This document shows positions 14,218 through 15,274 of a DNA stretch of 40,184 nt, one piece after another (positions within the stretch are counted from its first letter, which is position 1; every line of letters begins with the position of its first letter). The position numbers and the translations under genes are program-made. The notes below the pieces were generated by a model. The model worked only from the letters and a program-made list of their open reading frames with translations, was not told where the DNA came from and made no database searches. Source of the DNA: a virus (Duplodnaviria; Heunggongvirae; Uroviricota; Caudoviricetes); IMG/VR virus record IMGVR_UViG_2563366911_000003; one strand, given 5' to 3'.

Positions 14218-14227
14218 TAAATAGATT

Positions 14228-14266
14228 GTCACATTGAAGGTAACGTATCGACCTTCAATGTGATTA
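14228..14266 (+). terminator. Hairpin (13-bp perfect inverted repeat) after the NTPase ORF
   Basis: tcacattgaaggt / loop / accttcaatgtga, 10 nt after the stop at 14217; no strong U-tract, so it may instead be a protein-binding palindrome. Confidence 0.45.
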
Positions 14267-15274
14267 TTATCCTCTTAATAATATAGCCTAGGCTACTTTC
14301 GACTTTCTGAGGCACAGAGATTGCAGAATGTATCAATCATAGTGAAGCTATCGTAAATGTCCGCACGTTTCTACAGATAGTCAGATTTGAGTGAACTGCC
14401 TCCGCAAAATGCTGGTTGGGGCCTGACTTAATACATCTGAAGAAGTGTTGGTTATGTTTGGCTGTTATGAATCAGATAATTGATATGTTGATTAGAGGAG
14501 AAGATAGAATCAACATGGTTGTTTTTCGTATAACTATTTGTTTTACTTTTAGTTTATGCATTCTGTGTGTTAGGAGTAAGTTATTAAAGTTTAACCAAAA
14601 AATCTTGATGTCGTCCACATAGATTACTGTTACTGAACCTTATTGTGTGCATTAGTTGTGTTTTGAAATTTCAATTTAATTATTTATGATGTGTATTTTT
14701 AACGATAAATGTTTTCTGGGTAAAAGACAGTGGGGGATGAGATAGGCAATATATCATTAATCTTGATTATCTCCAGGATGCCTTACTGTTCATATAAATA
14801 AATCACATGCGCATCAAGTAATGTAAAGGCATCCTTTTAGTTATATCTTATTAAATGTTAATGCTTTGAGTGGAAAACATGATTCCAGCAATTATCATAT
14901 GGCTACTTTATAAAAATAATGCCCATATAAAACAACAAGTGAAAAGGATTACGGATAAAAAAGGAGCGAGATGTGCAAAGTTGTTATTTTCCATGTTTAA
15001 CCACCTTAAACAATTGATGATGACGGGATGATTGCATCTGCAATGCTTTTATTGAAATGTTATGATAAAAAAGAACTTTTTCATAACATTAAAATGCAAT
15101 TTATCTAATCGTTTTTAATAATAAGTGTGGTATTTCTATCCTTGTACCAGCTATTTGATATGTAGTGTTTGTTCATGCTATGTGGAGCTTTACACCATAG
15201 CCAGTTTATTTATACTTTATTCGTCAGCCTGAACAACTGGCATCTGCTGCACTGCGCCATAGAGAGATTGAGAA

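What the first reader, a model, noticed from the sequence alone, without database searches (positions are those of the whole stretch)
14218..15274. About 1 kb of AT-rich, ORF-poor DNA downstream of the NTPase gene
After a 13-bp perfect inverted repeat (14228-14266), roughly 1 kb has no ORF above 72 aa on either strand, is strongly AT-rich and carries many promoter-like TTGACA/TATAAT-type hexamers. That is unusual in a densely coded prophage. It could hold a small RNA, a decayed partner gene of the NTPase, or H-NS-silenced horizontally acquired DNA.
Basis: seen in the sequence. Interest (0 to 1): 0.5.

Follow-up and report, generated by a model that had tools for sequence, protein, structure and literature searches.

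The report
Patchwork border of a prophage cargo slot
The gene-poor, AT-rich kilobase is not a decayed gene but three unrelated pieces of DNA joined at the edge of a swappable cargo slot in a Rac-type E. coli prophage. The rightmost piece hides two conserved, unannotated elements: a 28-codon gene for a membrane-type peptide, and the promoter with a folded RNA leader of the operon that ends in the Q-like late-gene regulator.

Summary
The gap is real. It is the longest stretch of the window without an ORF of 75 aa or more, it is 33% G+C, and the 13-bp inverted repeat is perfect. Promoter-like hexamers are not enriched (6 found, 6.6 expected).

It is a mosaic of three parts:
- **A, 14218-14469:** the 3' tail of the NACHT cargo cassette, with a strong terminator-like hairpin.
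- **B, 14470-14906:** an orphaned upstream region of a different cargo, a yeaR-like DUF1971 gene. It is joined to A at a 20-nt microhomology and is non-coding in all relatives.
- **C, 14907-15274:** prophage backbone, present in 1177 of 5426 complete E. coli genomes and never annotated.

C holds two conserved elements:
- **A 28-codon minus-strand ORF (14994-14908)** with a Shine-Dalgarno site. It is always intact, and dN/dS between the major types is 0.2-0.5.
- **A sigma-70 promoter with a two-hairpin leader (15189-15282)** ahead of the DUF1367-DUF1364-Q-like operon. The stems covary across at least 12 named enterobacterial genera. The motif is absent from Rfam. GenBank's phage 82 record marks the spot only as a "possible regulator-binding site".

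Six-frame searches found no decayed gene, no remnant of hok/sok, and no Rfam RNA. Whether H-NS silences the region could not be tested.

The parts
14218..14469 (+). Part A: the 3' non-coding tail of the NACHT cargo cassette.
   Evidence: Window 11802-14469 is 97% identical to L005 1584-4256, where the NACHT gene is an intact 752-aa ORF and the same tail follows it.
14229..14263 (+). Perfect 13-bp stem with a 9-nt loop, 12 nt after the NACHT stop codon. Probably the transcription terminator of the cassette.
   Evidence: repeat I6.: -20.3 kcal/mol, z = -5.1. The hairpin is followed by UUAUUAUCCUCUU. The consensus terminator scan did not call it, because the stem is AT-rich and the U-run is interrupted.
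14450..14469 (.). A/B recombination joint: a 20-nt microhomology, GGTTATGTnnnGCTGTTRTG, shared by both parental arrangements.
   Evidence: The window equals L005 up to 14469 and equals L002 from 14450 onward.
14470..14906 (.). Part B: the orphaned upstream region of a different cargo, a minus-strand yeaR-like DUF1971 gene. That gene and its core promoter are missing here. Non-coding.
   Evidence: B is present in 465 E. coli genomes and is never annotated. In 46 of the 51 loci that hold B, the DUF1971 start codon lies within 150 bp of B's left end; of the other five, two are cut at the locus edge and three are the window's two twins and one IS3 insertion. All B ORFs are broken in relatives, and a 57-bp stretch is deleted in the commonest type. 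There is no similarity to hok/sok.
14907..15274 (.). Part C: the conserved backbone module that forms the right border of the cargo slot.
   Evidence: C is present in 1177 of 5426 complete E. coli genomes, always with 'none' annotated. It follows the hok terminator or the IteS terminator directly in other prophages. Among DUF1367-anchored loci it was found only in Escherichia and Shigella.
14908..14994 (-). Unannotated 28-codon ORF, MENNNFAHLAPFLSVILFTCCFIWALFL: a polar N-terminus followed by a 19-residue hydrophobic tail.
   Evidence: - The ORF is intact and exactly 87 nt in all 66 module-C copies retrieved through the DUF1367 gene, a retrieval that is blind to the ORF (13 DNA haplotypes).
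- It is intact in all 187 copies overall, with 14 peptide variants. Some contigs were sampled twice.
- It is the only frame without stop codons. dN/dS is 0.2-0.5 between the major types, and 16 of 28 variable sites are third codon positions (p = 0.008).
- It is the only ORF of 18 aa or more in B+C that stays intact across all types.
15001..15007 (-). Shine-Dalgarno site AAGGTGG, 6 nt upstream of the mini-ORF's ATG.
   Evidence: The site is kept in all types as AAGGTGG, AAGGTGAG, AAAGTGAG or AAGGTAG.
15057..15130 (.). Conserved block upstream of the mini-ORF. It contains the inverted repeat ATGTTATG (15057-15064) / CATAACAT (15082-15089) and an invariant AT-rich stretch. Its role is unknown; it could be the promoter or 5' UTR of the mini-ORF, or a protein-binding site.
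   Evidence: The block is invariant even in the two copies whose further flanks differ: L203, which sits in a different phage context, and L036, which has a different sequence at that point. The hairpin is kept through G-C to G-U and U-A to U-G changes only, so covariation is modest and the consensus fold is only -9 kcal/mol.
15189..15216 (+). Sigma-70-type promoter of the DUF1367-DUF1364-DUF1133 (Q-like) operon: TTTACA, 16 nt, TATACT.
   Evidence: The site matches 10 of 12 consensus positions. Positions A2 and T6 of the -10 hexamer are invariant in 33 sequences from many genera. Other lineages have a good -35 or a TGn extended -10 at the same place. GenBank X92588 (phage 82) marks putative -35 and -10 signals at the homologous spot.
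15223..15241 (+). Leader hairpin 1, starting at about +1 of the transcript: 5-bp stem GUCAG/CUGGC and conserved loop CCUGAACAA (consensus YYUGAACAN).
   Evidence: Four of its 5 pairs change on both sides across genera (44 cells), with 95.5% of cells paired. RNAalifold finds the same hairpin independently.
15253..15282 (+). Leader hairpin 2: UGCGCCA pairs with UGGCGCA. This buries the last two bases of the AUG start codon (15275-15277) in the stem and leaves the Shine-Dalgarno site in the loop.
   Evidence: 97.7% of cells are paired. Compensatory variants include GCACCA/UGGUGC, GUGUCA/UGGCAC and GUUGUGCCAU/AUGGCACAAC. The covariance model built on both hairpins gives a single hit in the window, 15222-15284, at 50.6 bits.

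Best explanation
The stretch is not one feature. It is the non-coding right-hand end of a variable cargo slot in a Rac-type lambdoid prophage. The slot lies between the replication module (ydaU, ydaV, DUF1627, DUF977) and the operon DUF1367-DUF1364-DUF1133 (Q-like antiterminator).

**What is shown**
- Sibling prophages carry quite different cargo in this slot: NACHT, IteA/IteS, DUF262 with an AAA ATPase, a nuclease with a methyltransferase, an Sll1717-type ATPase, QueH, an MFS transporter, KilA-N, and hok/sok.
- Here a NACHT cassette, itself frameshifted, ends with its own hairpin and 250-bp tail (part A).
- Recombination at a 20-nt microhomology fused that tail to the upstream region of another cargo, a yeaR-like DUF1971 gene. 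The gene and its core promoter were lost, leaving 437 bp that code for nothing in any relative (part B).
- The last 368 bp (part C) are conserved backbone.

**What is inferred**
- Part A's hairpin terminates NACHT transcription.
- Part B is probably inert, or at most a residual regulatory or H-NS-binding region.
- Part C carries two working units. The first is a small self-contained gene on the minus strand for a 28-residue hydrophobic, probably membrane-inserted, peptide. The second is a promoter whose transcript begins with a stem-loop that has an invariant loop. A second stem-loop then hides the DUF1367 start codon.
- The leader probably keeps the operon that ends in the Q-like gene quiet in the lysogen, until a factor that recognises the loop, or a refolding of the RNA, allows expression.
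For: **Prophage identity**
- RalA sRNA is present. racR to trkG are annotated in a twin that is 99.9% identical.

**Mosaic structure and joints**
-.

**Variable cargo between conserved flanks**
-.

**Part B belongs to the DUF1971 cassette**
-.

**No coding remnant in the region**
-.

**Hairpin of part A**
-.

**Mini-ORF**
-.

**Promoter and leader**
- The -10 hexamer has invariant A2 and T6.
- Covariation: 96.8% of cells are paired, against 21-35% when the partners are slid. Six of 12 pairs change on both sides, and 0 of 500 shuffles reach the observed score.
- RNAalifold gives -19 kcal/mol, with 8 of 13 pairs compensatory.
- G-U cells favour the + strand: about 10 cells pair only on the + strand, against 2 only on the minus strand (my count from the tables).
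- The covariance model also hits K-12 DLP12 upstream of ylcH-ybcN-ninE-ybcO-rusA-ylcG-quuD, and K-12 Qin.
- rusA in DLP12 is 'normally quiescent' until an IS insertion upstream activates it (PMC1636454). This fits a leader that keeps the operon silent.
Against: - No transcription or translation data were available. No promoter for the mini-ORF could be identified.
- The mini-ORF is short. Divergence among the unbiased copies is limited to two or three sequence types.
- The most divergent copy (L203) was found with an amino-acid pattern. That biases its dN/dS of 0.06-0.14 downwards for codons 1-18.
- The variable-arm, constant-centre pattern of hairpin 1 argues for RNA. A DNA operator whose two half-sites co-evolve is not formally excluded, and GenBank X92588 calls the site a possible regulator-binding site.
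- An unregulated promoter in front of a Q-like gene would be harmful to a lysogen, so the promoter's activity must be conditional. This was not tested.
- The hairpin of part A lacks a clean U-run.
Confidence: 0.75

Rival explanations
1. The whole kilobase is functionally empty, H-NS-coated xenogeneic DNA. The conserved ORF and hairpins are by-products of recent common ancestry.
For: The region is 33% G+C, against 46% for the window. All of it is unannotated in more than 1000 RefSeq genomes. Parts A and B show no sign of function.
Against: The leader hairpins covary across named genera whose DUF1367 proteins are only 50-87% identical to the window's, which common ancestry alone cannot explain. 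The mini-ORF shows an excess of third-position changes and is the only frame kept open. H-NS binding would not exclude these functions.
Confidence: 0.15
2. The region is a decayed gene: either a lost effector or partner of the NACHT NTPase, or a degraded hok/sok locus like the one that occupies this place in sibling prophages.
For: Sibling prophages have hok/sok exactly between the cargo and part C. There is one weak tblastn alignment of the Hok C-terminus at 14403-14477 (E = 0.25-0.36 against the region alone).
Against: - Pfam gave no hit in any of the six frames, and PHROGs only E = 0.02-0.1 noise.
- Rfam's sok model does not match the window, although it does match the Salmonella, Citrobacter and Pantoea loci.
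- The local DNA alignment of B against a hok/sok locus scores below the mean of shuffles (19 against 20.7).
- The intact NACHT cassette in L005 has the same tail and no partner gene.
Confidence: 0.03
3. Part C is a type I toxin-antitoxin-like module. The 28-residue peptide would be a membrane toxin, and a roughly 110-nt plus-strand RNA would be its antitoxin. That RNA would start next to the ORF's start codon and end at the small hairpin near 15110-15130.
For: - The peptide is small and hydrophobic and has a Shine-Dalgarno site.
- In hok-type copies the scan finds a + strand promoter-like site (TTTCCA, 16 nt, TATGAT or CATAAT) overlapping the ORF's start. It also finds a terminator-like hairpin, CGCTT..AAGCG followed by a T-run, about 100 nt downstream.
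- The module sits beside hok/sok. It also occurs alone at a different phage location, in L203.
Against: - In the window's own type the -10 is degenerate (ACAATT) and the terminator stem is broken, yet the ORF is intact. An unprotected toxin should not persist.
- Promoter-like sites are not above chance in these AT-rich stretches.
- The peptide matches no type I toxin model in NCBIfam or Pfam.
- The consensus RNA structure is weak.
Confidence: 0.12
4. Hairpin 1 of the leader is not an RNA element. It is a palindromic DNA operator for a phage repressor, overlapping the transcription start.
For: The GenBank phage 82 record annotates it as a repeat_region, 'possible regulator-binding site'. It overlaps +1 of the predicted promoter. 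The homologous operon is silent in K-12.
Against: The arms vary freely while staying complementary, and the asymmetric 9-nt centre is invariant. That is the reverse of a protein operator. Six T-G juxtapositions in helix 1 are tolerated as G-U in + strand RNA. Hairpin 2 covaries with codons 2-3 of the gene, which indicates RNA-level selection in the same leader.
Confidence: 0.15

Closest known systems
Hotspots of anti-phage systems in prophages and satellites (P2-like and P4-like elements; PMC9122126, listed)
   Same: Conserved flanking backbone with highly variable cargo in one slot. Much of the cargo consists of known or candidate defence genes (NACHT, IteA/IteS, a nuclease with a methyltransferase). 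The joints are made by recombination in short homologies.
   Different: This is a Rac-type lambdoid prophage, and the slot lies between the replication genes and the Q-like operon. I found no paper describing this particular slot. The finding concerns the slot's non-coding border, not a defence system.
hok/sok type I toxin-antitoxin locus (Rfam RF01794 sok; Pfam Hok/Gef)
   Same: In sibling prophages it occupies the same position, directly left of part C. It is an AT-rich locus with only a small ORF.
   Different: There is no Hok ORF, no sok match and no DNA similarity in the window. Part B comes from another cassette.
Putative promoter and inverted repeat upstream of orf33-orf151-...-rus-Q of phage 82 and DLP12 (GenBank X92588; the record cited as Mahdi et al. 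1996 in PMC1636454)
   Same: It is the same motif at the same place: a -10 hexamer, then the inverted repeat with centre CCTGAACAA, then the ribosome-binding site and the first gene of the operon that ends in Q.
   Different: It was annotated there only as a putative DNA 'regulator-binding site' in one phage. Here it is shown to be a covarying two-hairpin leader spread over many enterobacterial genera and placed ahead of different first genes (DUF1367, ylcH, and the unannotated ORF after rem).
Lambda nut site (boxA plus the boxB hairpin bound by N)
   Same: A promoter-proximal RNA hairpin with a 5-bp variable stem and a conserved purine-rich loop, in a phage operon governed by antitermination.
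   Different: The loop is 9 nt (YYUGAACAN), not a GNRA-like pentaloop. There is no boxA nearby. There is only one copy in the window. Lambda itself has the tR2 terminator at the equivalent place and no match to the model.
Small hydrophobic type I toxins of enterobacteria (Ibs, ShoB, ZorO, DinQ, TisB; named from my own knowledge)
   Same: 18-35 residues, a single hydrophobic helix, encoded in AT-rich intergenic DNA, and missed by gene callers.
   Different: There is no sequence match to any model. No conserved antitoxin RNA was shown, and toxicity is unknown.

Membership tests
hok/sok type I toxin-antitoxin | A Hok/Gef ORF of about 50 aa with the conserved transmembrane and Cys motif | tested here: not met
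   tblastn with three Hok proteins from sibling loci gave a best E of 0.25 against the region alone. Six-frame Pfam gave no hit.
hok/sok type I toxin-antitoxin | A sok antisense RNA and the hok mRNA leader (Rfam RF01794) | tested here: not met
   There is no match in the window at gathering score or at E up to 10. The same model scores 88-110 bits in L220, L221 and L222.
Type I toxin-antitoxin (generic), for the mini-ORF | A small hydrophobic peptide gene with its own ribosome-binding site | tested here: met
   28 aa, a 19-residue hydrophobic tail and a conserved Shine-Dalgarno site.
Type I toxin-antitoxin (generic), for the mini-ORF | A conserved antisense or divergent antitoxin RNA with a promoter and a terminator | tested here: inconclusive
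   Promoter-like and terminator-like sites are present in hok-type copies but degenerate in the window's type. They are not above chance.
Type I toxin-antitoxin (generic), for the mini-ORF | Toxicity of the peptide, neutralised by the RNA | not testable with these tools
   This needs expression experiments.
Protein-coding gene (mini-ORF 14994-14908) | The reading frame is kept open and its length is invariant in homologues retrieved without reference to it | tested here: met
   66 of 66 DUF1367-anchored copies, 13 haplotypes. It is the only such ORF across all types.
Protein-coding gene (mini-ORF 14994-14908) | Purifying selection in that frame (dN/dS below 1, an excess of third-position changes) | tested here: met
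   dN/dS is 0.21-0.51 between the major types and is lowest or joint lowest of the six frames. 16 of 28 variable sites are at the third position, p = 0.008. Caveat: the ORF is short, and L203 was ascertained by a peptide pattern.
Protein-coding gene (mini-ORF 14994-14908) | Evidence of translation, or a known family | tested here: not met
   There is no Pfam, NCBIfam or PHROGs family. The exact sequences are absent from the 15-billion-protein collection. No paper mentions it. Translation itself is not testable here.
Intrinsic (Rho-independent) terminator, hairpin 14229-14263 | A stable stem-loop directly after the stop codon | tested here: met
   -20.3 kcal/mol, z = -5.1.
Intrinsic (Rho-independent) terminator, hairpin 14229-14263 | A G+C-rich stem followed by an uninterrupted U-run | tested here: inconclusive
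   The tail is UUAUUAUCCUCUU. The consensus scan did not call it.
Sigma-70 promoter (15189-15216) | A -35 and a -10 hexamer at 16-18 nt spacing, with A2 and T6 of the -10 conserved in homologues | tested here: met
   TTTACA, 16 nt, TATACT, 10 of 12 matches. A2 and T6 are invariant in 33 sequences. Other lineages have a -35 or a TGn extended -10.
Sigma-70 promoter (15189-15216) | A mapped transcription start | not testable with these tools
   This needs dRNA-seq or primer extension.
Structured cis-regulatory leader RNA (15223-15282) | Base pairs kept through compensatory changes in diverged homologues, above the controls | tested here: met
   The slid controls give 21-35% paired against 96.8% observed, and 0 of 500 shuffles reach the covariation score.
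Structured cis-regulatory leader RNA (15223-15282) | Membership of a curated Rfam family | tested here: not met
   There is no match in the window or in 13 loci from other genera.
Lambda-type nut site | A boxB hairpin with a 5-nt GNRA-like loop | tested here: not met
   The loop is 9 nt (7 nt if its end bases pair), with consensus YYUGAACAN.
Lambda-type nut site | A boxA element (CGCUCUUA-like) next to boxB | tested here: not met
   GCTCTTTA with up to 1 mismatch has no match between 12385 and 16316.
Prophage cargo or defence hotspot | The same conserved flanks with unrelated cargo in different genomes | tested here: met
   At least ten different cargo sets lie to the left of part C or the DUF1367 leader; where the stretch fetched reaches that far, they follow DUF977.

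The most novel reading that the evidence does not exclude
Part C would hold two undescribed regulatory devices of Rac-, 82- and Gifsy-type prophages.

1. **Hairpin 1, with its invariant YYUGAACAN loop.** It would be the RNA recognition site of a so-far unidentified factor that decides whether the operon ending in the Q-like antiterminator is expressed. That factor could act by antitermination, on RNA stability or on translation. The hairpin would then be a functional analogue of boxB or of a translational operator, controlling the switch to late genes.
2. **The 28-residue peptide.** It would be a new family of prophage membrane peptide, either a toxin or a superinfection-exclusion moron, carried by about a fifth of E. 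coli genomes.
Probability: 0.2. Interest if true: 0.65.

Novelty: new member of a known kind. Interest (0 to 1): 0.45.

Why it matters
**What is ordinary.** As a gene-poor AT-rich gap the finding is mostly ordinary. Such gaps mark the seams where prophage cargo cassettes are exchanged, and two thirds of this one is leftover DNA.

**What is worth keeping.** Two conserved elements in the last third are in no annotation, no Rfam or Pfam family, and no paper I could find.
- The 28-codon ORF occurs in about 22% of complete E. coli genomes. It is below the length that gene callers accept.
- The promoter and two-hairpin leader precede the operon that ends in the Q-like late-gene regulator in many enterobacterial prophages, including DLP12 and Qin of K-12. 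The leader may explain why rusA and quuD are silent there. In K-12 it can be tested directly with reporter fusions.

**Use for annotation.** Part C and DUF977 can serve as anchors to harvest the cargo of this slot, which includes defence genes, across genomes.

Tried and rejected
- **Rfam on the whole window and on the region at E up to 10.** Only RalA and two tRNAs were found, all elsewhere.
- **Six-frame translations against Pfam and PHROGs.** Nothing credible. The phrog_1886 hit (E = 0.02) and the phrog_16065 hit (E = 0.11) cross stop codons or coincide with an ORF that is broken in relatives.
- **Hok proteins against the region.** Noise only.
- **Local alignment of part B against a hok/sok locus.** Below the shuffle mean.
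- **The 35-aa hydrophobic ORF 14518-14622 (MVVFRIT...) as a candidate toxin.** Rejected: it has a premature stop in relatives (L002, L008, L009) and its changes are mostly non-synonymous.
- **The 53-aa ORF 14870-15031.** Rejected: it is broken in all relatives.
- **The hairpin 14775-14835 as a conserved terminator.** The stem loses a pair in relatives, there is no covariation, and its flank is deleted in the commonest type.
- **A promoter for the mini-ORF.** None found above chance.
- **The peptide in protein resources.** An exact look-up found none of eight variants. Family libraries gave only signal-peptide-like noise.
- **Module C in K-12.** Absent from Qin between hokD and rem.
- **Module C in other genera.** Absent upstream of DUF1367 outside Escherichia and Shigella.
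- **The leader in phage lambda.** Absent; tR2 sits there instead.
- **BoxA near the leader.** Absent.
- **Literature searches for DUF1367, this slot, the peptide and ylcH.** Nothing on these elements.
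Full report
**Context**

The window is a Rac-type lambdoid prophage of E. coli.
- Rfam finds the RalA antitoxin RNA at 1557-1735.
- A chromosome that is 99.9% identical over the region (NZ_CP151005, locus L001) is annotated racR, ydaS, ydaT, ydaU, ydaV, DUF1627, DUF977 (truncated), a hypothetical protein, a NACHT NTPase, then nothing for 1057 bp. After the gap come DUF1367, DUF1364, DUF1133, two tRNAs, lysis genes and trkG.
- The phage record ON470614 names the DUF1133 protein an antitermination protein Q.

**Checking the observation**

- The inverted repeat is exact: 14229-14241 and 14251-14263. As RNA it folds at -20.3 kcal/mol, z = -5.1.
- No ORF inside 14218-15274 exceeds 68 aa. 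The 72-aa ORF runs into the next gene.
- This is the longest stretch of the window without an ORF of 75 aa or more.
- G+C is 33.0%, against 45.9% for the window. The NACHT gene is just as AT-rich at 32.4%, so the low-G+C island is about 3.3 kb and includes that gene.
- Promoter-like hexamer pairs are not enriched: 6 found, 6.6 +/- 2.7 expected from shuffles.

**The region is a mosaic**

Comparison with related loci splits it into three parts.

*Part A (to 14469).* It is 97% identical to L005 (NZ_CM139237). There the NACHT gene is one intact 752-aa ORF, followed by the same 250-bp tail and then a hok/sok locus.

*Part B (from 14450 to 14906).* It is 93.7% identical to L002 and L003, and to hundreds of other genomes.
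- B occurs in 465 complete E. coli genomes.
- In 46 of the 51 loci held here that contain B, its left end lies within 150 bp of the start codon of a divergently transcribed yeaR-like DUF1971 gene.
- Of the other five, two are cut at the locus edge, two are the window's twins and one carries an IS3 insertion.

*Part C (14907-15274).* It is shared at 71-100% identity with 1177 of 5426 genomes. It directly follows the hok terminator, or the terminator of iteS, in other prophages.

*The A/B joint.* A and B overlap by 20 nt (GGTTATGTnnnGCTGTTRTG), a microhomology present in both parental arrangements. The window's order, NACHT tail joined to an orphan DUF1971 upstream region, is therefore a rare recombinant. 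Only six genomes cover more than 80% of the region.

**The slot**

In different genomes the slot to the left of part C or the DUF1367 leader (after DUF977 wherever the fetched stretch reaches it) holds:
- NACHT;
- IteA/IteS;
- DUF262 with an AAA ATPase;
- an ATP-dependent nuclease with a cytosine methyltransferase;
- an Sll1717-type ATPase;
- QueH;
- an MFS transporter with gamma-glutamylcyclotransferase;
- KilA-N;
- an O-methyltransferase with an ATPase;
- often hok/sok as well.

This is the pattern of a prophage cargo or defence hotspot, as described for P2-like and P4-like elements (PMC9122126). I found no description of this particular slot.

**Is anything decayed here?**

- Six-frame translations give no Pfam hit. 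PHROGs gives only two weak hits, E = 0.02 and 0.11, that cross stop codons or coincide with ORFs broken in relatives.
- Hok proteins from sibling loci do not align.
- B is no more similar to a hok/sok locus than shuffled sequence is.
- Rfam's sok model is silent in the window, though it scores 88-110 bits in the Salmonella, Citrobacter and Pantoea loci.
- Every ORF of 18 aa or more in B is interrupted in close relatives. This includes the tempting hydrophobic 35-aa ORF at 14518-14622. A 57-bp piece of B is missing from the commonest type.

So A and B are non-coding. A is the end of the NACHT cassette with its probable terminator. B is a stranded piece of another cassette's regulatory region.

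**Part C, element 1: a mini-gene**

On the minus strand, 14994-14908 encodes MENNNFAHLAPFLSVILFTCCFIWALFL. AAGGTGG lies 6 nt before the ATG.

*The reading frame is kept.*
- I retrieved homologues through the neighbouring DUF1367 gene, a route that is blind to the ORF. All 66 full copies of C had the ORF intact at exactly 87 nt, in 13 DNA haplotypes.
- A degenerate pattern scan of IMG/VR added more, giving 187 copies and 14 peptide variants, all 28 aa. Some contigs were sampled twice.

*The frame is under selection.*
- Between the major sequence types dN/dS is 0.21-0.51. This frame is the only one free of stops, and it has the lowest or joint-lowest ratio of the six.
- 16 of 28 variable sites are third codon positions, p = 0.008.
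- The most divergent copy (L203) gives dN/dS of 0.06-0.14. It was found by the peptide pattern, which biases codons 1-18.

*It looks like a self-contained unit.*
- L203 sits in a different phage neighbourhood, next to a tail-fibre-like gene. It shares only the ORF, the Shine-Dalgarno site and an upstream block: the inverted repeat ATGTTATG/CATAACAT plus an invariant AT-rich stretch.

*What is missing.*
- The consensus RNA structure of the upstream block is weak, and I could not identify a promoter for the ORF.
- The peptide matches no Pfam, NCBIfam or PHROGs family.
- Its exact sequences are absent from a 15-billion-protein collection. It is unannotated in every RefSeq hit and appears in no paper searched.
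- At 87 nt it is, to my knowledge, below the 90-nt minimum gene length of common gene callers such as Prodigal.

I put the chance that it is a real translated gene at about 0.65. Its function (membrane peptide, toxin or exclusion factor) is inference only.

**Part C, element 2: a promoter and structured leader**

*The promoter.* The one promoter-like site with phylogenetic support is TTTACA, 16 nt, TATACT at 15189-15216.

*The conserved layout.* I aligned the 85 nt before DUF1367 genes from E. coli, E. ruysiae, Salmonella, Citrobacter, Pantoea, Serratia, Siccibacter, Silvania, Leclercia, Enterobacter, Klebsiella, Kluyvera, Pluralibacter and others. The alignment shows, in order:
- a -10 hexamer with invariant A2 and T6;
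- six to eight bases later, a hairpin whose stem differs from genus to genus and whose loop is constant (YYUGAACAN; window 15223-15241);
- a short conserved ACCUG;
- a second hairpin in which UGCGCCA pairs with UGGCGCA (window 15253-15282). This buries the last two bases of the AUG (15275-15277) in the stem and leaves the Shine-Dalgarno site in the loop.

*The covariation.*
- On my stated structure 96.8% of cells pair, against 21-35% when the partners are slid.
- Four of five pairs of helix 1 change on both sides, and no shuffle reaches the covariation score.
- RNAalifold predicts the same two hairpins on its own: -19 kcal/mol, 8 of 13 pairs compensatory.
- G-U cells fit the + strand. By my count from the tables, about 10 cells pair only on the + strand and 2 only on the minus strand.

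*Where else it occurs.*
- A covariance model finds one copy in the window (50.6 bits).
- It finds copies ahead of other first genes. One is the rem-type locus L096.
- One is in K-12 Qin, ahead of an unannotated 92-aa ORF between rem and ydfU.
- One is in K-12 DLP12, ahead of ylcH-ybcN-ninE-ybcO-rusA-ylcG-quuD.
- Lambda has the tR2 terminator at this place instead.

*What was known.*
- Rfam has no such family.
- GenBank X92588 (phage 82) marks the same bases as a putative -35, a putative -10 and a repeat_region, 'possible regulator-binding site'. The inverted repeat was therefore noticed in 1996, but as DNA.
- rusA in DLP12 is 'normally quiescent' until an IS element inserts upstream (PMC1636454). 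This fits a leader that keeps the operon off.

*How it might work.* This is inference. A loop-specific factor acts on the nascent RNA, or the two hairpins limit translation and stability. It is not a lambda-type nut site: the loop is not a pentaloop and there is no boxA.

**Verdict**

The finding is real as an observation and ordinary in origin. It is a seam of a prophage cargo slot, two thirds of it leftover DNA. Its last third contains two conserved, undescribed or barely described elements that merit a short experimental follow-up.

Noticed in passing
window 11960-14217 (A-run at 12738-12744): The NACHT NTPase gene is split into 267-aa and 500-aa ORFs by a one-base loss in a poly-A run: A7 here, A8 in the intact 752-aa gene of L005. 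The Walker A motif is in the first piece. The twin genome has the same break, so it is a pseudogene or a slippage-prone switch.
   Followed up: yes
window about 11800-11850: The left joint of the NACHT cassette cuts off the C-terminus of the DUF977 gene, which RefSeq annotates as 'incomplete' in the twin. The cassette brings its own TTGACA promoter-like site upstream of the NACHT start.
   Followed up: partly
L002 about 5970-5995 (absent from the window): The yeaR-like DUF1971 cargo gene has a palindrome, AACATGCATTATAAATGCACCTT, just upstream of its start. From memory it resembles the NsrR operator consensus, as at K-12 yeaR. This suggests a nitric-oxide-responsive moron.
   Followed up: no
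L216 4307-4585, minus strand (E. coli K-12 MG1655 Qin, between rem and ydfU): An intact 92-aa ORF (MARNAKYYNSDNSPVLACTHGRY...) preceded by the leader motif is not annotated in NC_000913.3. A homologous ORF follows the same leader in L096.
   Followed up: partly
L256 4321-4377 (K-12 DLP12, upstream of ylcH): The same leader occurs here with a 9-bp stem, UCACCGGAG/CUCCGGUGA, around the loop CCUGAACAA. A second hairpin hides the ylcH AUG. This makes a convenient K-12 test bed.
   Followed up: partly
L220 676-862, 1585-1735 and 3974-4154 (Salmonella enterica): The equivalent slot upstream of DUF1367 in Salmonella carries isrK, a C4-type antisense RNA and sok. A second isrK and C4 pair lies downstream.
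   Followed up: no
window 14966-15000, + strand: Antisense to the mini-ORF there is a perfect AAGGAG followed by an ATG, opening a 9-codon ORF (MCKVVIFHV; 12 codons in hok-type copies). It may be a by-product of the Ala-Pro-Phe codons on the other strand.
   Followed up: no
window 1557-1735 and 17069-17219: RalA antitoxin RNA (225 bits), and two tRNA genes (annotated as Thr and Gly in the twin) between the Q-like gene and the lysis genes.
   Followed up: no
NZ_CM142773.1 (hit H3) and L036: In NZ_CM142773.1 an IS1 has inserted inside the region. In L036 the sequence between the mini-ORF cassette and the DUF1367 leader is different, which I read as an insertion but did not check. The two units of part C may therefore be separable.
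   Followed up: partly
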